Virus record (IMG/VR): IMGVR_UViG_2671180411_000014
Reading direction: 5' to 3' (one strand)
Length of the DNA: 6,412 nucleotides
From: a virus
Taxonomy: Duplodnaviria > Heunggongvirae > Uroviricota > Caudoviricetes
Under the pieces are notes generated by a model, which worked only from the letters and a program-made list of their open reading frames with translations, was not told the origin of the DNA and made no database searches. Positions 1-6,412 of this stretch are shown here, piece after piece. The number at the start of each line of letters is the position of its first letter. The stretch's first letter is position 1. The position numbers and the translations under genes were made by a program.

Positions 1-64
1 AACATAACGAAACATAATTCCCCATTATACGCGCGTATAATGGGGAATTATGTTTCGTTATGTT
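1..64. other. telRL: Perfect 64-bp palindrome; candidate protelomerase target site (telRL/tos-like) with N15-type telO core
   Basis: Checked base by base: position i pairs with 65-i for all 32 pairs, symmetry centre between 32 and 33. The central CCCCATTATACGCGCGTATAATGGGG (20-45) contains the 22-bp telO core CCATTATACGCGCGTATAATGG as I recall it for N15 and phiKO2. The palindrome starts at base 1, so it may extend beyond the window. Confidence 0.72.
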
Positions 65-207
65 CTTGATTAGTGTTCTTATTTAGTGTAATATTCTCAT
101 TTTGTGTACTGCTTTATTTAACATTTAGCTTTAATTCTTTATTTGTGTTCTTTATTATGTTTGCATCATTACTTAGTTTTTGTGTTCTTTATTTGTGTTC
201 TTGTATT
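61..207 (+). repeat. Array of short direct iterons (core TGTTCTT, extended TT(T/A)GTGTTCTT) next to the palindrome; candidate accessory protein-binding sites
   Basis: Exact TGTTCTT at 61-67, 74-80, 146-152, 183-189 and 196-202. Extended copies: ttagtgttctt 70-80, tttgtgttcttt 142-153, 179-190, tttgtgttcttg 192-203; degenerate tttagtgta 82-90 and tttgtgtact 101-110. The first copy lies inside the right arm of the palindrome, so the array runs on from the telomere site. Region is very AT-rich and non-coding. Confidence 0.5.
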
Positions 208-384
208 GGTAAGGTTGGGAGAACTAATAGAGAAAACGTATCTCATTGATGATTCTTATCATGTTTCCCTAGTTTTACATGATTTCCTTTCTTCAAAAAA
301 TATAATAAATATCAATTACTTATGATTATGTTGTTGTTCGTTTTATGCATTTCGGGAGGGGAACAAAAGATGATTTAGCTTAAA

Positions 385-490
385 AATTCTCCTTTGCGTT
401 TTTCTTTTTGCTTTGCCTTTTTCATGCAAATTTGCTAGAAATAAGCAAAGATTTAATTATTAAGCAAAGTTACAAGCTGGAGATGACAGT
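385..490 (+). promoter_or_regulatory. sopAB promoter/operator region with four perfect CTTTGC hexamers (SopA autoregulation motif) and a Shine-Dalgarno
   Basis: CTTTGC at 392-397 and 411-416; its reverse complement GCAAAG at 445-450 and 464-469; near-copies TTTTGC 406-411 and ATTTGC 430-435. F-plasmid SopA is known to bind CTTTGC repeats in its own promoter. Tentative sigma70 elements: -35 TTGCTA 432-437, 16-bp spacer, -10 TAATTA 454-459. GGAG at 479-482 sits 8 nt before the ATG at 491. Confidence 0.5.
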
Positions 491-1657
491 ATGTCTTTGA
501 AAAAGCTATTGCAAGATTGTGTTACGAGAGGTCAAGAAATGACCCAAGCAATTGCTATCGCTCAATTCGGTGATGATAGTCCTGAAGCTCGGCGTATCAC
601 CCGCCGATGGGGTATTACTGAAGTAGCAGATTTAATTGGTGTAACTCCTCAAGCAATTAGAGATGCTGAGAAGAGCGGGCGTTTACCTGCACCTGACTTT
701 GAAATGAGAGGAAGAATTGAACGTCGTGCTGGTTATACCATAGATCAAATCAACAGTATGCGAGCAGTTTTTGGCAACCCAAACCAACGACCACAAGATA
801 AAAACCCTGTTGTTCTTGCCGTTATGTCACACAAAGGCGGCGTTTATAAAACATCGTCTGCGGTACATCAAGCTCAATGGTTAGCATTACAAGGTCATCG
901 TGTTCTTTTGGTTGAAGGTAACGATCCTCAAGGTACAGCCTCTATGTATCACGGTTATGTTCCTGATTTACATATCCATGCCGAGGATACTTTACTGCCA
1001 TTTTACTTAGGAGAACGCGATAACGCTGAATATGCTATAAAGCCAACATGTTGGCCTGGGCTAGACATTATCCCTAGCTGCCTAGCTTTACATCGTATAG
1101 AAACAGATCTCATGCAATATCATGCTCAGGGTAAATTGCCTCATCCTCCACACCTTATGCTGCGCGCAGCTATTGAATCAGTTTGGGATAACTACGATGT
1201 TATCGTTATAGATAGTGCTCCGAACCTCGGTACAGGAACCATTAACGTTGTTTGTGCCGCTGACGTTATTGTTGTTGCTACACCTGCAGAATTATTTGAT
1301 TACGCTTCTGTTCTACAGTTTTTCACAATGCTTCTCGATCTATTGGAAAGCGTTGACCTAGGTGGATTTGAGCCAACCGTTCGCTTACTTCTGACTAAAT
1401 ATAGTCTCACTACAGGGAATCAATCACGATGGATGGAAGAACAAATAAGAAATACATGGGGATCAATGGTATTACGTCAGGTTGTACGCGTTACCGATGA
1501 AGTAGGTAAAGGCCAGATAAAAATGAGAACAGTATTTGAACAAGCAGCAAACCAACGTTCAACATTGAATGCATGGAGAAATGCTGTTTCTATATGGGAC
1601 CCTGTTTGCAGAGAAATTTTTGATGATCTAATAAAACCTCGCTGGGAGAACGAATAA
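491..1657 (+). CDS. sopA: Type Ia partition ATPase SopA/ParA (388 aa)
   Basis: ATG start with upstream GGAG. Translation aligns along its full length with F-plasmid SopA as I remember it (AIAIAQF.DDSPEAR.ITRRW, GRLP.PD, deviant Walker A KGGVYKTS, LLVEGNDPQGTASMYHG, PTCWPGLDIIPSCLALHRIET, VIVIDSAPNLG.GTINVVCAADV, GFEP.VR.LLTKYS, GKGQI.MRTVFEQA, LIKPRWE). Same length as F SopA. Confidence 0.95.
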   Translation: MSLKKLLQDCVTRGQEMTQAIAIAQFGDDSPEARRITRRWGITEVADLIGVTPQAIRDAEKSGRLPAPDFEMRGRIERRAGYTIDQINSMRAVFGNPNQRPQDKNPVVLAVMSHKGGVYKTSSAVHQAQWLALQGHRVLLVEGNDPQGTASMYHGYVPDLHIHAEDTLLPFYLGERDNAEYAIKPTCWPGLDIIPSCLALHRIETDLMQYHAQGKLPHPPHLMLRAAIESVWDNYDVIVIDSAPNLGTGTINVVCAADVIVVATPAELFDYASVLQFFTMLLDLLESVDLGGFEPTVRLLLTKYSLTTGNQSRWMEEQIRNTWGSMVLRQVVRVTDEVGKGQIKMRTVFEQAANQRSTLNAWRNAVSIWDPVCREIFDDLIKPRWENE

Positions 1658-2622
1658 TGAAACAGCGCTCTCTTCTAAAAAATGCTCCAGATATTAATCG
1701 CATTATGAGTAATAATCATCATGCCCCTGAACATCAGCCCGTATCACCTATGGTTGGTGATTTAAAACGTCAACTGAGTTCATTAACCGGTAACAGCATA
1801 ACTTTGCCAGTATGCGGACGTAATGTTAACTTTAAGTTAGAGACAATTCCCGCAGATAAAGTTGAAATGGCAACAATGGTATGGCTAGGTAATGAACGCG
1901 ATCAAGATTTATTAAATGAATCCTCTCTAGCCGATTTAATCCCATCTTTTCTAACGTCTGGACAACAAAATCCAGCTTTCGCCAGAAAAGTATCTGGAAT
2001 CGTTGAAGTCGCTGACGGCTCACGTAGAAGAAAAGCAGCGATATTAACAGGATGTGACTATCGCGTCTTAATTGGTGATCTCGACGATGAACAGATGCAT
2101 TGGTTATCCCAAATTGGTAACGATTATAGGCCTATTAGTGCATACGAAAGAGGAAAGAGATACTTACGCAAGCTAAATGACTTTGATGGTAACGTTAAAG
2201 CATTGGCCGAGGCTGAAAATATAGATAGAAATATTATCACTCGCTGTATTAATACAGCTGGTCTACCAAAAGATATATTAGCTATCTTCAATCATCCAGG
2301 AGAACTGTCAGCTCGTGCTGGAGATTCTTTGTTTAAGATTTACAAAAAAAACATGGCTGCCATGAGCAATGCTGCTCATCATCTTCTGACAATAAAAAAA
2401 AACGGCGAGGATTTAGAAGCTTCACGGATTATACAAATATTATCTGACTCTGTTCTGGTTGGCGACGAGGAAAAAACAAAAGACGAGAAAAAATATGGGG
2501 AAGGGATCACGGCTAGATATAAAGGGAATTTTGTAACTATAAAAATTGATAGCCGCAAAATATCTAAAGAAATACTAAGCAAAATTGAGTTGTTACTAGA
2601 GGAACAATCTACTGATAATTAA
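1657..2622 (+). CDS. sopB: Partition centromere-binding protein SopB/ParB (321 aa)
   Basis: ATG overlaps the sopA stop (TAATG, 1655-1659). Translation carries conserved ParB/SopB blocks: ITLPVCGR.V.F.LE, W.GNERDQ.LL, LIPSFL.TGQQ.PAF.R.VSG..E.ADGSRRRKAA, DYRVL.G.LDDEQM, GNDYRP.SAYERG.RY, AEAENI.R.IITRCINTA.LPK, F.HPGELSAR.GD.L. Confidence 0.93.
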   Translation: MKQRSLLKNAPDINRIMSNNHHAPEHQPVSPMVGDLKRQLSSLTGNSITLPVCGRNVNFKLETIPADKVEMATMVWLGNERDQDLLNESSLADLIPSFLTSGQQNPAFARKVSGIVEVADGSRRRKAAILTGCDYRVLIGDLDDEQMHWLSQIGNDYRPISAYERGKRYLRKLNDFDGNVKALAEAENIDRNIITRCINTAGLPKDILAIFNHPGELSARAGDSLFKIYKKNMAAMSNAAHHLLTIKKNGEDLEASRIIQILSDSVLVGDEEKTKDEKKYGEGITARYKGNFVTIKIDSRKISKEILSKIELLLEEQSTDN

Positions 2623-2654: not shown

Positions 2655-3230
2655 TTATGGTTGACTTGGCCACTCGATATCTGGAGATAGTGATGTATCA
2701 ACACGATTCAACAACACCCGATATGTCTTCCATGCGGCCAGTAACGATTTCTCTTCCTCCGTTGCGATCTCAAGATCTACCGCATCCTGAAGCGGCGCAA
2801 TATGCTCACTGGCTACCTGCATCAGGCTGTTTTTTGTTTCTTCCGCCTCCCGGATCCGGAATAGTTTTTCTGCTTCTGCATCTTTCACCCAGGCTGTGCC
2901 GTTCCACTTCTGATATTCCCCTTCCGGCGATAACCAGGTAACATTTTCCGGTAACGGACCGAGTTCAGAAATAAATAACGCGTCCCCTGATGCCACGTCA
3001 TAAACTGTTTTACCCCGATGGTCTTCAACAAGATGCCACGATGCATCATCACTGTTGAAAACAGCCACGAAGCCAGCCGGAATATCTGGCGGTGCAATAT
3101 CGGTACTGTTTGCTGGCAGACCTGTATGAGGCGGAATGTATGCGTCACCTTCACCAATAAATTCATTAGTTCCGGCCAGCAGATTATAAATTTTTATGGT
3201 CCGTGGTTGTTCACTCATTCTGAATGCCAT
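2655..3230 (-). CDS. tfa: Tail fiber assembly protein, lambdoid Tfa family (191 aa)
   Basis: Translation [54 protein letters not shown]... matches the E. coli lambdoid prophage tail fiber assembly proteins (TfaE/TfaR-like) from memory. The ATG overlaps the stop of the upstream stf by one base (TAATG on the - strand at 3228-3232). Placement directly after a tail fiber gene is canonical. Confidence 0.9.
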
Positions 3231-6200
3231 TATGCAAGCCTCACAATATAGTTAAATGCGATGTTTTTGACGGTGTTTTCCGCGTTACCAGCAGCGTTAA
3301 CGGTGATGGTGTGTCCATGTGAACCAATCGCAACGGAGTGCGTATGAGCACCAATACCGACAGTATGCGCGTGTGCACCTGCAGATGCTGCTGTGCCGGA
3401 CAGTGAGTGGCTATGATTACCATCTGTACTGGTATTAGCTAACCACCCCGTAGACATACCTACTGAGCCTTGTACACCCCAGGTATTTTGACCTGAGCTT
3501 GTATAACCATATTGATAAGTATCTTTAAAAACACTGGGGTTAAATCGACGGCCATCTCTATGGCTGTGATTACCAGCTGCATTCGTGCTGCCACTTAAAC
3601 TATGGGTATGCGCACCAGTGTTATTCGTGGATTTAGTGCCGTAATCAAACGACGATGTGGTTTTCGTCCCCAAATCCGTACTGGATGCGCTGGCGCTGTG
3701 GGTATGCGATTTAATGCCGTCCTGTTCCTGAGACAATACGGCCCGACCACTGGCAGGTTTGCCCTTAATCGTCCAGCCACGCATATCAGGGATCACGCCT
3801 GACGGATAAGCCGCTGCAAGTTTCGGGTATGCAGATTTGTCAAAAGCCTGCCCCTGCATCAGGGCATAGCCAGACGGAACGGTATCTGATGGCCACGGGA
3901 TTGGTGCGCCAGGCGGATAAAACTGCTCTGATGGCGTATAGAGTGAATAAACTGTACCGTCCGTTAACCCTTCCGGCTTATTAGCAGAATATGCTGGTGA
4001 CGTATGAATCGTCACGCTGGCATTACTGGTATAATCCCATTGAATATTTACACCAGTCGCATAATTTCCGATTGCAACGTAAATATCGTAAGTATCACCA
4101 GATGTATTAACCCAGGCAAAATTTGTAAACCCTGTCAATGTGCGCTGCCATAAAGCACCAGTAATCCCCTTCGGATTACCATTACCTGCACGTAAAACAA
4201 GTTCAGATATACCTGCCTGTTGAGGTGACCCCACGTTAAATCCAGCGCCACCAATCAACGTAATTGAAACAACAGAACTCGCCTGTGGCATGGTTACCGT
4301 TGCTAATTTGAACCAACCAGCACCACCGCTGAATGACATTGTTGTTGAGTTAAGCGTACCAATATCTTTCGGCGTCAGTGTTATATCCGCTGAAAGCGCC
4401 TTACCATTCACCTTACGGGCAGAAGGTACCCGACCATTCGCATTGTCATTAGCTGCTTTCACTGCTTTCGGTGTCGCAGCAAGCGTTTCAGATGTGCTGT
4501 TGGTTGCACTACTGAGCTGGACAATTCCTTTTTGTGCTGTCGTAGCGTCCTGTGCGGTGTATTTCCCGTTAGCCAGGTCATACGCGGCCTTAACGGCTTT
4601 TGGCGTTGCCGCCTGTGACTCGGAAGTGCTGTTAGTCGCACTGCTGAGCTGAACTATCCCTTTCTGTGCTGTCGTTGCATCCTGTGCGGTGTATTTCCCG
4701 TTAGCCAGGTCATACGCGGCCTTAACGGCTTTTGGCGTTGCCGCCTGTGACTCGGAAGTGCTGTTGGTCGCACTGCTGAGCTGTACTATCCCCTTTTTCG
4801 TCGTGCTCGCATCCTCAAGCGCCACGGCGGATGCAATATCCTCTGCCCGTTTTGCTGCTGTCTCGGCGCGCGTTGCCGCGGATTCCGCCGTACTTTTGCT
4901 CTGTGCTGCCGCTGCCGCACTGCCAGCAGCCTCTGTCGCCTTCGTGGATGCCGTCGTGGCGCTGCCCCTCGCTGCTGACGCCTGTCTGGTCGCCTCATCT
5001 TTTGAAGCAGACGCAGATGATGCCGATGACGCCGCCGAACTGGCGGACGATGCGGCAGCCGTTTTTGAGGATTCTGCGCTGGTTTCCGACGCTTTCGCGT
5101 TCGTTTCGGATGTCTTCGCTGCGGAAGCAGACCTCGCTGCTGCCGTGGCCTGCTCAGTGNNNNNNNNNNNNNNNNNNNNNNNNNNNNNNNNNNNNNNNNN
5201 NNNNNNNNNNNNNNNNNNNNNNNNNNNNNNNNNNNNNNNNNNNNNNNNNNNNNNNNNNNNNNNNNNNNNNNNNNNNNNNNNNNNNNNNNNNNNNNNNNNN
5301 NNNNNNNNNNNNNNNNNNNNNNNNNNNNNNNNNNNNNNNNNNNNNNNNNNNNNNNNNNNNNNNNNNNNNNNNNNNNNNNNNNNNNNNNNNNNNNNNNNNN
5401 NNNNNNNNNNNNNNNNNNNNNNNNNNNNCCTCGCTGCTGACGCCTGTCTGGTCGCCTCATCTTTTGAAGCAGACGCAGATGATGCCGATGACGCCGCCGA
5501 ACTGGCGGACGATGCGGCAGCCGTTTTTGAGGATTCTGCGCTGGTTTCCGACGCTTTCGCGTTCGTTTCGGATGTCTTCGCTGCGGAAGCAGACCTCGCT
5601 GCTGCGCTGGCCTGTTCAGTGGCTTCGCCAGCCTTCGTTGTGGCTGTTGAAGCGGATGATGCGGCGCTTTCTGCCGATTTTCCGGCGGCGGTGGCACTGA
5701 CTGCTGCCTCCTCTGCCTTAATGGACGCCTCACGGGCCGATGATGCAGCTGCTGTCTCAGAGTCTGCCGCAGCTGAGGCGCTCTGTTCCGCTGCCGTTTC
5801 AGAAGACTTAGCATTCGTCTCGGACGTTTTTGCCGCCTTCACGGAATTTCCTGCCGCCGTTGCCGAGGAGGCTGCACTGCTGGCGCTTGTGGAGGCGTTC
5901 GTTTCTGATGATTTTGCCGCCTCTTTGGAGGCCGCCGCATCTCTGGCTGAAGTGGCGGCTTCTGACGCTTTCGTTGTCGCAGTGGATGCAGAAGTGGCTG
6001 CTGATTTTTGTGACGCTGCAGCATTCGTTTCTGACGTTTTCGCCGCACCGGCACTGGTGGCCGCCGCGCTTTTTGAGGACTCTGCAGCGGCAGCACTTTT
6101 TGATGCTTCAGTGGCCTTTGTTGATGCCGTTCCTGCGCTGGAAGACGCCTCCTGAGCCGAAGTCGCGGCCTGTCCGGCTGACGTGCTGGCTGCACGCGCT

Positions 6201-6412
6201 GAGCCTGCAGCATCAGTCGCATGGGTTGCCGCCTCACGGGCAGATGTGCCGGCATCACTGGCTGACTTCTTCGCGGCTGCCGTGTTCTGTGCCACCGCGG
6301 ACGCGTTACGCGCCACCTCTTCCACCATCAGTTCAAAACGGCGCAGAGCCTCCGGACGGGCATCATCCTCCGTCATGGCACCGAGAAAATCATTCAGCGT
6401 ACCGGGTCGGGA
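3230..6412 (-). CDS. stf: Side tail fiber protein, lambdoid Stf family; partial, 5' end lies beyond the window end; contains a 269-nt N gap
   Basis: Stop TAA at 3230-3232 (- strand). The frame stays open from the ATG at 6376 up to the window edge: codons upstream of that Met translate [21 protein letters not shown], which matches an internal segment of lambdoid Stf proteins, so the Met at 6376 is internal. Ala/Ser/Thr-rich repetitive shaft, [14 protein letters not shown] repeats, and a His-rich C-terminal tip ([33 protein letters not shown]) ending [11 protein letters not shown]. Confidence 0.9.
4417..4812. repeat. In-frame tandem repeat within stf: 3 copies of a 132-bp (44-aa) unit
   Basis: Units 4549-4680 and 4681-4812 are near-identical (few mismatches); unit 4417-4548 is a diverged copy. 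They encode [44 protein letters not shown] twice, then a variant [33 protein letters not shown]. Confidence 0.8.
4967..5621. repeat. Large direct repeat within stf flanking the N gap (offset 462 bp, in frame)
   Basis: 4967-5159 is almost identical to 5429-5621 (about 3 mismatches in 193 bp). The offset of 462 bp is 154 codons. Both sides encode [64 protein letters not shown]. Confidence 0.75.
5160..5428. other. Run of 269 N (assembly gap or masked sequence) inside the stf coding region
   Basis: Directly visible. It is bounded on both sides by copies of the same repeat, consistent with repeat-induced assembly ambiguity. Confidence 0.99.

What the first reader, a model, noticed from the sequence alone, without database searches (positions are those of the whole stretch)
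61..207. Iteron array (TGTTCTT core) running on from the telomere palindrome
Five exact TGTTCTT heptamers and about six extended TT(T/A)GTGTTCTT-like copies lie within 150 bp. The first copy overlaps the right arm of the palindrome. N15 tos is described as telRL plus flanking repeats resembling the telRL arms (recalled sequence TTGTGTGCT is similar in flavour to TTTGTGTTCT here). These could be accessory protelomerase sites, a centromere-like SopB site cluster, or binding sites for another regulator. The motif differs from the F sopC inverted repeat, so the binding protein is unknown.
Basis: partly seen in the sequence, partly recalled or inferred. Interest (0 to 1): 0.55.

Follow-up and report, generated by a model that had tools for sequence, protein, structure and literature searches.

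The report
Accessory protelomerase boxes beside hairpin telomere
The repeated TGTTCTT motifs are real and are this N15-like linear plasmid-prophage's version of the accessory repeats that flank the telomere-resolution site in phage N15, so they are an ordinary, previously described kind of feature whose exact job is still untested.

Summary
Five exact TGTTCTT copies lie at 61, 74, 146, 183 and 196. With their flanks they form about nine TTGTGTTCT-like boxes, all on one strand, partly in 13-bp register. Local shuffles give 0.25 copies.

The window is the telR end of an N15-like E. coli linear plasmid-prophage: hairpin apex at 32/33, box array, SopA operator, sopA, sopB, tail-fibre genes. Bases 1-32 mirror 33-64 only because the source assembly read through the hairpin.

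In a 99.9%-identical complete replicon, all four exact TTGTGTTCT copies lie within 170 bp of the tel centre. Copies on the telN arm are mirrored. N15-type SopB centromere palindromes sit elsewhere.

N15 carries the same box pairs at the same distances from the centre (about 100/113 and 148/161 bp), inside its published ~0.4-kb tos fragment. The boxes differ by one base from the TTGTGTGCT outer box of telRL. In PY54, phiHAP-1 and VP882 the flanking repeats match each phage's own palindrome arms.

Best reading: tos-type accessory protelomerase-binding boxes (R1/R2 homologues). They are not iterons, a centromere or SopA operators. Binding and function remain untested, here and in N15. This is a new member of a known kind, of low to moderate interest.

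The parts
1..32 (.). Mirror image of 33-64, produced because the source assembly read around the telR hairpin. It is not a separate genomic feature.
   Evidence: The arms are 100% complementary. Source record CP088810.1 has sopA-sopB mirrored on both sides of the centre. Relatives in phage or circular form have a different left side that leads to telN.
33..60 (+). telR half of the protelomerase target. It comprises half of telO (GCGTATAATGG) plus the outer R3-type box (ATTATGTTTCGTTA). The hairpin apex lies between 32 and 33.
   Evidence: It shares the telO core CCATTATACGCGCGTATAATGG with N15 and 37 viral contigs. PhiR46_1 annotates this stretch as 'telR site'.
58..80 (+). Double box A: TTATGTTCTT-GAT-TAGTGTTCTT. 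The two boxes are 13 bp apart and directly abut R3.
   Evidence: It is invariant across six E. coli-family sequences. N15 has ATGTTCC at the same distance of 27 from the centre.
83..111 (+). Two degenerate boxes: TTAGTGTAATA (83-93) and TTTGTGTACTG (101-111).
   Evidence: The second is a full TTGTGTTCT in PhiR46_1.
130..152 (+). Double box B: TTTAATTCTT-TAT-TTGTGTTCTT. This is the positional homologue of the N15 pair at outward 100/113.
155..164 (+). Degenerate box TTATGTTTGC.
   Evidence: Relatives have TTGTGTTTG here.
180..202 (+). Double box C: TTGTGTTCTT-TAT-TTGTGTTCTT. This is the positional homologue of the N15 pair at outward 148/161. It marks the outer edge of the array.
   Evidence: The N15 tos PCR fragment ends just beyond the equivalent pair (PMC2847241 primers).
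392..469 (+). SopA (ParA) operator and sop promoter region. It has CTTTGC at 392 and 411, ATTTGC at 430, and GCAAAG at 445 and 464. This is context, not part of the array.
   Evidence: The 19-bp start-to-start register and 28-bp inverted-repeat spacers match the F/N15/phiKO2 ParA operator described in PMC8465637.
491..1657 (+). sopA (type Ia ParA ATPase). Context.
   Evidence: Pfam AAA_31/CbiA. It is 93% identical to N15 SopA.
1657..2622 (+). sopB (centromere-binding ParB). Context.
   Evidence: Pfam SoPB_HTH. RefSeq annotations agree.

Best explanation
Bases 58-202 are the sop-side (R-arm) half of a tos-type region. They hold about nine same-strand, outward-pointing, degenerate copies of the outer box of the protelomerase target (TTGTGT-G/T-CT). 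Several copies are arranged as 23-bp double boxes with 13-bp spacing.

Inferred mechanism. Protelomerase (TelN) reads the outer box of telRL with its C-terminal DNA-binding (stirrup/CTD1) domain. It also binds these weaker copies, so extra TelN molecules load next to the hairpin (telR) and next to the replicated junction (telRR). This would build a larger telomere complex that helps TelN find and hold its site at low concentration. It may also contribute to end capping or local transcription control.

What is shown. The repeats exist. They are restricted to the telomere. Their orientation, their likeness to the arm box, and their conservation in position and sequence across lineages are all demonstrated.

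What is inferred. That TelN binds them, and what that binding achieves.
For: (1) Enrichment. There are 5 TGTTCTT copies against 0.25 expected locally, with 0 of 5000 shuffles reaching 5.

(2) Telomere restriction. In the 47,425-bp replicon L042 all 4 exact TTGTGTTCT copies lie within 170 bp of the tel centre. Of 19 sites with at most one mismatch, 8 lie within 200 bp, an 85-fold density. All 8 point outward on both arms.

(3) Homology with N15 tos. N15 has TGTTC(C/T) boxes at outward 27, 59, 100/113 and 148/161 on its sop arm, matching window positions 26, 98/111 and 148/161. They lie inside the 0.4-kb fragment amplified with the published tos primers (PMC2847241). PMC12624138, citing Deneke 2000 and 2002, states that N15 tos is 310 bp and holds degenerate L1/L2 and R1/R2 copies of the L3/R3 motifs.

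(4) Footprint. Across five N15-sublineage sop arms, box columns are 0.96 conserved against 0.71 for spacers (Mann-Whitney p = 3e-10). The window's arm is not alignable to N15 by blastn, yet it keeps boxes at the same distances.

(5) Every lineage examined has 3-7 outward TGTT[CA][TC] copies on the sop arm (0.6-1.5 expected, shuffle P from <0.0005 to 0.07) and no inward copies.

(6) Covariation across deep clades. The flanking repeats of PY54 (GGTTAC), phiHAP-1 and VP882 (GGGC..TATGTATGTA) match their own palindrome arms and not those of other clades.

(7) This family's own R3 arm box (TTATGTTTCG) is of the accessory-box type. Its TelN is 97.5% identical to that of PhiR46_1, whose R3 is canonical. 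The enzyme therefore must accept TGTT-type boxes.

(8) The family's TelN is about 80% identical to TelK (PDB 2V6E) over residues 1-536, a span expected from general knowledge of TelK to include the C-terminal stirrup DNA-binding domain (stirrup described in PMC3558466, PMC11317167).
Against: No binding data exist for this element. I could not access a primary paper showing TelN occupancy of N15 L1/L2/R1/R2.

The 56-bp telRL suffices for TelN cleaving-joining, described in PMC12624138 as the site 'required for efficient recombination'. TelN lacking residues 445-631 still protects linear plasmids (PMC12624138). The boxes are therefore at most modulatory.

In the PY54 relative P840 the flanking inverted repeat is dispensable in vivo (PMC10612081).

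A 13-bp spacing looks tight for two 70-kDa TelN monomers.

Within the window the most uniform part of the box is TGTTCTT rather than the TTGTGT shared with the arms. One box (180-189) is not conserved in PhiR46_1. Identical 17-mers at 136-152 and 186-202 show recent duplication.

For the window's own family, its own arm 8-mers do not match its flanks better than shuffles (P = 0.26). The N15-type arm matches them better.
Confidence: 0.7

Rival explanations
1. The boxes are read by a protein other than protelomerase. This could be a host or phage DNA-binding protein that binds direct repeats, for example a response-regulator-type or nucleoid-associated factor. It would organise or regulate the subtelomeric region, including transcription near telN.
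For: Direct repeats in a fixed register are typical of head-to-tail binders. The uniform TGTTCTT part extends beyond the TTGTGT shared with the arms. The Klebsiella lineages use TGTTAT/TGTTAC boxes although their arm boxes are the same as N15's. The best conserved L-arm box lies 30-40 nt upstream of the telN start codon, where an operator would sit.
Against: The boxes track each clade's own tel-arm sequence across N15-like, PY54 and Hapunavirus phages with unrelated motifs. That is hard to explain with a shared host factor. The 13-bp spacing does not fit the 10-11 bp typical of OmpR/PhoB/ArcA-type repeats (general knowledge). No candidate gene is linked to the array.
Confidence: 0.12
2. The array is a by-product of slippage or duplication in AT-rich subtelomeric DNA and has no function. 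The motif recurs only because the units were copied recently.
For: Identical 17-mers lie at 136-152 and 186-202, and there is a period-13 tandem structure. The any-7-mer shuffle test is only marginal. One box has been lost in PhiR46_1.
Against: Boxes persist at the same distances in lineages whose spacers are unalignable. Box columns are much more conserved than spacers. All 30-odd copies across lineages on the sop arm point outward, with none inward. Mirrored copies exist on the other arm.
Confidence: 0.1
3. The array is a partition site, either a SopB centromere cluster or SopA operator sites acting on the adjacent sopAB operon.
For: It lies upstream of sopA. Partition sites are often repeat arrays.
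Against: N15-type SopB sites (GTGCGACCNNGGTCGCAC, PMC7205306) occur 5 times elsewhere in the replicon and not in the window. The SopA operator, with the exact F/N15 architecture, lies at 392-469, about 190 bp beyond the array. The same boxes occur on the telN arm, far from sop in the linear plasmid.
Confidence: 0.03
4. The boxes are true iterons, meaning replication-initiator binding repeats of an origin.
For: Only the appearance: direct repeats in AT-rich DNA.
Against: No rep gene is nearby. N15-type replication initiates within repA on the other arm (PMC2847241). The motif is mirrored around the telomere rather than around an origin.
Confidence: 0.02

Closest known systems
Phage N15 tos (telomerase occupancy site): telRL plus flanking L1/L2 and R1/R2 repeats (Deneke et al. 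2000, 2002, as summarised in PMC12624138)
   Same: The telO core is the same. The layout is the same: telN, about 191 bp, centre, about 460-490 bp, sopA. The box family TTGTGT(G/T)CT is the same, with the same outward orientation. Double boxes lie at the same distances from the centre (about 27, 100/113 and 148/161). TelN is 78% identical.
   Different: The spacer DNA is not alignable with N15. There are more copies with a more regular 13-bp register, including an extra pair abutting R3. The box 3' end is uniformly TCTT. This family's R3 arm box has itself drifted to TTATGTTTCG.
Flanking repeats of other telomere phages: the PY54/P840 15- or 10-bp inverted repeat, and the phiHAP-1 and VP882 repeat regions
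   Same: These are accessory repeats on both sides of the tel palindrome that echo its outer arms. Tested members have a modulatory, non-essential role (PMC10612081).
   Different: The motifs are unrelated (GGTTAC; GGGC..TATGTATGTA). Copy numbers and orientations differ.
Accessory arm sites of site-specific recombination systems (lambda att arm sites, Xer cer/psi accessory sequences, Tn3 res subsites II/III). This is an analogy from general knowledge only.
   Same: Extra binding sites beside a core crossover site could assemble a higher-order complex.
   Different: No evidence here for topological filtering or for extra proteins. Protelomerase acts on a single palindromic site.
F/N15 SopA operator (CTTTGC hexamers) and N15 SopB centromere inverted repeats
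   Same: Both are repeat-based protein-binding sites in the same replicon, and one is in the same intergenic region.
   Different: The sequences and spacing differ (19-bp register with 28-bp inverted repeats; 18-bp palindromes), as do the locations (392-469; dispersed elsewhere).

Membership tests
N15-type tos accessory repeats (R1/R2, L1/L2) | They lie directly beside a protelomerase target (telO core plus outer L3/R3 boxes). | tested here: met
   The telO core and R3 box lie at 33-60, and the array starts at 58.
N15-type tos accessory repeats (R1/R2, L1/L2) | The repeats are degenerate copies of the outer-arm (L3/R3) motif in the same orientation. | tested here: met
   TTGTGTTCT differs from the arm box TTGTGTGCT by one base, and all copies point outward. 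The match is better to the N15-type arm than to this family's own drifted arm.
N15-type tos accessory repeats (R1/R2, L1/L2) | They are present on both arms, mirrored about the centre, and confined to about 150-200 bp on each side. | tested here: met
   This was shown in complete relatives L002/L042, which are 99.9% identical to the window. The window itself holds only the R arm.
N15-type tos accessory repeats (R1/R2, L1/L2) | Positional correspondence with the N15 repeats inside the published tos fragment. | tested here: met
   Box pairs at outward 98/111 and 148/161 correspond to N15 pairs at 100/113 and 148/161. The tos primers bracket them.
N15-type tos accessory repeats (R1/R2, L1/L2) | A cognate protelomerase is encoded next to the site. 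| tested here: met
   telN starts 191 bp from the centre on the other arm in relatives. It is 78% identical to N15 TelN and about 80% to TelK 2V6E. It is not inside the window.
N15-type tos accessory repeats (R1/R2, L1/L2) | The repeats are occupied by TelN. | not testable with these tools
   Needs EMSA, footprinting or ChIP.
Sop centromere (F sopC / N15 IR1-4) | A 16-18 bp palindrome of the GTGCGACCNNGGTCGCAC type. | tested here: not met
   None in the window. Five lie elsewhere in the replicon, at L042 719, 3162, 8055, 11064 and 11284 (PMC7205306).
SopA/ParA operator | CTTTGC hexamers in a 19-bp register with inverted partners across 28 bp. | tested here: not met
   The array lacks this motif. 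The true operator is at 392-469.
Iterons of a theta-replicon origin | Direct repeats adjacent to a rep gene or origin and bound by the initiator. | tested here: not met
   No rep gene lies in or near the window. The N15 origin is within repA (PMC2847241). Initiator binding was not testable.

The most novel reading that the evidence does not exclude
The boxes may be more than loose degenerate TelN sites. They could form a fixed-geometry subtelomeric scaffold. Box positions at about 27, 70, 95-113 and 150-161 bp from the hairpin apex are kept from PY54 to N15-like phages while the spacers turn over. Such a scaffold would assemble a defined multi-TelN (or TelN plus unknown partner) cap, a bacterial counterpart of a shelterin-like telomere complex. 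That cap could couple end protection, resolution and telN autoregulation through the conserved L1 box just upstream of telN.
Probability: 0.15. Interest if true: 0.6.

Novelty: new member of a known kind. Interest (0 to 1): 0.3.

Why it matters
The finding places a tos-type accessory array in a distinct E. coli lineage of N15-like plasmid-prophages. That lineage occurs in about 15 of 5426 complete E. coli genomes.

Comparison across lineages gives a sharper description than 'at least two degenerate copies'. The boxes form double boxes with 13-bp spacing at conserved distances from the telomere. They differ from the arm box by a single G-to-T change. Unrelated but analogous arrays occur in PY54 and the Hapunavirus phages.

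What these repeats do is still an open point in hairpin-telomere biology (PMC12624138 only speculates). The natural variation catalogued here supplies ready-made substrates for binding and resolution assays.

There are also two practical points. Linear pJAZZ-type vectors and TelN/tos tools carry such repeats. Long-read assemblies of these plasmids often unfold the hairpin into false palindromes.

Tried and rejected
- Rfam scan of 1-600. Only sub-threshold hairpin artefacts on the palindrome.
- Small ORFs 73-249 and 143-325. No Pfam match. One-base indels among close relatives fall inside 73-249. Not coding.
- Sigma-70 and terminator scan. No convincing promoter in the array. The 'terminators' are the telomere palindrome itself. 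A visually plausible TTGATT-17-TAATAT at 67-95 scores only 8 of 12 and is absent from N15, so it was not pursued.
- F sopC search in the window. Nothing found.
- Max-any-7-mer shuffle test. Marginal, probably because of T-runs. I did not rely on it.
- ATGAT-N4-ATCAT palindrome at 249-262 as a shared feature. Not conserved in N15 sublineages.
- Primary papers (Deneke 2000, Aihara 2007, Ravin & Lane 1999). Not held in the library. Statements about them rest on citing papers and on my own recall.
- Own-arm against own-flank matching for the window's family. Not significant (P = 0.26). The link to the arm box rests on the N15-type arm sequence and on homology.

Full report
**What the window is.**
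The window starts with a perfect 64-bp inverted repeat, 1-32 against 33-64. Its core, CCATTATACGCGCGTATAATGG, is the telO core of phage N15.

Downstream lie sopA (491-1657), sopB (1657-2622), a tail-fibre assembly gene and a tail-fibre gene.

The first 2.7 kb match plasmid CP088810.1 at 100% and about 25 other roughly 46-kb E. coli and E. albertii 'plasmids' at 98-99.9%. They match Escherichia phage PhiR46_1, whose record ends in an annotated 'telR site', at 88.6%.

In CP088810.1 the sopA-sopB genes are mirrored on both sides of the centre. That assembly therefore read around the hairpin, and bases 1-32 of the window are a copy of 33-64.

In relatives deposited in circular or phage form (E. 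albertii pEA8_3, L002/L042) the other side of the centre differs. It leads after 191 bp to a protelomerase gene. That protein is 78% identical to N15 TelN and about 80% identical to TelK of PDB entry 2V6E over residues 1-536. From general knowledge of TelK, that span should include its C-terminal DNA-binding ('stirrup') domain.

The window is thus the telR end of an N15-like linear plasmid-prophage.

**The observation.**
TGTTCTT occurs at 61, 74, 146, 183 and 196, all on the + strand. Shuffling only the AT-rich stretch 61-207 gives 0.25 copies on average, and none of 5000 shuffles reach five.

With flanks, the unit is TT(T/A)GTGTTCTT. There are four exact copies and two copies with two mismatches, plus weaker copies at 84-93, 130-139 and 155-164.

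The copies form three 23-nt double boxes at 58-80, 130-152 and 180-202, with a 13-bp register.

A test that asks whether any 7-mer reaches five copies is only marginal, probably because T-runs inflate the shuffles. The statistical case from the window alone is good but not overwhelming.

*Dispersal.* In the complete 47,425-bp relative, the 9-mer TTGTGTTCT occurs four times. All four lie within 170 bp of the tel centre. Of 19 sites with at most one mismatch, eight lie within 200 bp of the centre, an 85-fold excess in density.

*Mirroring.* The copies on the sop arm and those on the telN arm all point away from the centre. The telN arm also carries two inward copies 13 bp apart, right next to the arm box.

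It is not the pattern for centromere or dispersed regulatory sites.

**Partition sites are elsewhere.**
The published N15 SopB sites are GTGCGACCNNGGTCGCAC palindromes (PMC7205306). The relative carries five TGCGACC(AC/GT)GGTCGCA palindromes at L042 719, 3162, 8055, 11064 and 11284. None is in the window.

The SopA operator is also accounted for. CTTTGC at 392 and 411, ATTTGC at 430, and GCAAAG at 445 and 464 reproduce the 19-bp register and 28-bp inverted-repeat spacing described for F, N15 and phiKO2 (PMC8465637). It lies about 190 bp beyond the array.

**Relation to N15 tos.**
The N15 sop arm, read outward from the centre, has ATGTTCC at 27 and 59. It has TGTGTTCTGTTATGGTGTTCTT at 100-122 and TGTTCTTTGATTGTGTTTC at 149-170. 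The window has boxes at outward 26/39, 98/111 and 148/161, so the pairs fall at the same distances.

The published primers used to amplify the 0.4-kb N15 'tos' fragment bracket exactly these boxes on both arms (PMC2847241).

A 2025 paper summarises the primary work. It says the natural TelN target is about 310 bp. The 56-bp telRL is telO plus the 10-bp L3/R3 motifs, and at least two degenerate copies (L1, L2 / R1, R2) lie in the flanks. It adds that TelN's CTD1 might conceivably bind them (PMC12624138).

The box here, TTGTGTTCT, differs by one base from the N15 arm box TTGTGTGCT.

**Evidence for constraint.**
Thirty-seven viral contigs share the telO core. All that extend far enough keep the layout of centre, about 458-520 bp, then sopA on one arm, or centre, about 178-193 bp, then telN on the other.

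SopA stays at least 92.7% identical where a full-length match is available, while the tel-sopA spacer turns over. The window's spacer finds no blastn match in N15.

Even so, every lineage examined has 3-7 outward TGTT[CA][TC] copies on the sop arm, against 0.6-1.5 expected, and no inward copy (shuffle P from <0.0005 to 0.07).

Among five N15 sublineages, compared in register, box columns are 0.96 conserved against 0.71 for spacers (p = 3e-10).

On the telN arm, boxes at about 69, 94 and 151 are kept in the E. coli, N15 and Klebsiella lineages. They are also kept in a contig whose TelN is only 59% identical.

**Who binds.**
This cannot be shown with these tools, but three observations point to protelomerase.

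- First, the boxes resemble the outer arm box, have its orientation, and occur only around the telomere.
- Second, more distant telomere phages also have flanking repeats, and each set echoes its own palindrome. PY54 uses GGTTAC, matching its arm TAGGTTACT. phiHAP-1 and VP882 use GGGC..TATGTATGTA, matching their arms. In a cross-comparison the arm words of one clade hit the flanks of that clade (4-12 hits) and not those of the other clades (0-5, mostly 0-2).
- Third, this family's genuine R3 arm box is TTATGTTTCG, which is an accessory-type sequence. Its TelN is 97.5% identical to that of PhiR46_1, whose R3 is the canonical TGTGCTGAT. The enzyme therefore has to accept TGTT-type boxes within a real half-site.

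**What it does.**
My best account is that the boxes are weaker TelN-binding sites that load extra enzyme beside the hairpin and beside the replicated telRR junction. This would help target finding and complex stability at low TelN levels.

TelK monomers are reported to search by 1D diffusion and to wait at the target for a partner (PMC3575837). That fits a loading role.

A contribution to end capping or to telN control is possible. The most conserved L-arm box, (G)GTTACGATAA, sits 30-40 nt upstream of the telN start codon from PY54 to N15.

All of this is inference. Several published results limit it:

- The 56-bp site is described as sufficient for efficient recombination (PMC12624138).
- TelN lacking residues 445-631 still protects linear plasmids (PMC12624138).
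- The flanking repeat of a PY54 relative is dispensable in vivo (PMC10612081).

Any role is therefore modulatory.

**Rivals.**
- *A different binding protein.* It is not excluded, since direct repeats in a fixed register and a uniform TCTT tail fit it. It fits poorly with the clade-by-clade tracking of the arm sequence.
- *Neutral tandem duplication.* It explains the identical 17-mers at 136-152 and 186-202. It does not explain the positional conservation, the strict orientation or the mirrored copies.
- *Centromere, SopA operator and iteron readings.* Each fails its defining feature.

**Verdict.**
The feature is real and correctly located. The feature is the counterpart of the N15 tos R-arm repeats in a separate E. 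coli lineage of N15-like plasmid-prophages, found in about 15 of 5426 complete E. coli genomes.

It is a new member of a known kind. The open question, what accessory boxes at hairpin telomeres do, is not answered here, but the comparative map gives clear substrates for testing it.

Noticed in passing
window 1-32 (and source record CP088810.1, L003): The left half of the 64-bp palindrome is an assembly mirror. The 81-kb 'circular' source record has sopA-sopB duplicated in inverted orientation around the hairpin apex. Several other PLSDB and IMG/VR records of this plasmid family show the same read-through (identical L and R arms).
   Followed up: yes
window 392-469: SopA (ParA) operator. CTTTGC lies at 392 and 411, ATTTGC at 430, and GCAAAG at 445 and 464. 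The 19-bp register and 28-bp inverted-repeat spacers are as described for F, N15 and phiKO2. The arrangement is conserved in every lineage examined.
   Followed up: yes
window 232-296: This block is more conserved between the window family and the PhiR46_1 family than the box array itself. It contains an ATGAT-TCTT-ATCAT palindrome at 249-262 and a weak promoter-like match at 274-301. It is not conserved in N15 sublineages. Its function is unknown.
   Followed up: partly
window 47-60 versus L002 3994-4007: The telRL of this family is asymmetric in its outer boxes. R3 is TTATGTTTCGTTA and L3 is TTATGTGCTGAT. The closely related PhiR46_1 family has the canonical box on both arms, with a 97.5% identical TelN.
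   Followed up: partly
L042 719, 3162, 8055, 11064, 11284 (complete relative; outside the window): Five dispersed TGCGACC(AC/GT)GGTCGCA palindromes match the published N15 SopB centromere sites IR1-4. They are presumably this replicon's centromeres.
   Followed up: partly
L002 3858-3872 (telN arm, outward 150-164); same position in N15, Klebsiella, L039 and PY54 loci: A box ATTGTGTTACGATAA / GGGTTACGATAA lies 30-40 nt upstream of the telN start codon. It is nearly invariant from PY54 to N15-like phages. It may be a telN promoter or operator element.
   Followed up: partly
L002 3978-4007: A promoter-like site TTGACT-18-CATAAT on the telN arm points into and across the tel site. It overlaps the two inward boxes. 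In the linear prophage it would face the hairpin end.
   Followed up: no
L043 (PY54), L044 (phiHAP-1), L045 (VP882): Each distant telomere phage has its own set of flanking repeats that echo its own palindrome arms: GGTTAC in PY54, and GGGC..TATGTATGTA in phiHAP-1 and VP882. In PY54 the tel-side boxes lie at about 70, 97 and 144 bp from the centre, close to the N15-family positions.
   Followed up: partly
window 5160-5428: A run of 269 N (masked or unknown bases) lies inside the 1048-aa tail-fibre ORF (3230-6376, minus strand). The ORF length and translation there are not reliable.
   Followed up: no
window 2668-6412: The tail-fibre and tail-fibre-assembly genes are 93-96% identical to side-tail-fibre modules of many lambdoid E. 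coli phages. In the E. albertii relative this module is replaced by other genes (EspS-like and different fibre genes). It is a mosaic, exchangeable host-range module.
   Followed up: no
window 811, 901 (+) and 1437 (-): Three further TGTTCTT copies lie inside sopA. This is about what chance allows for the rest of the window, and there is no sign that they belong to the array.
   Followed up: no
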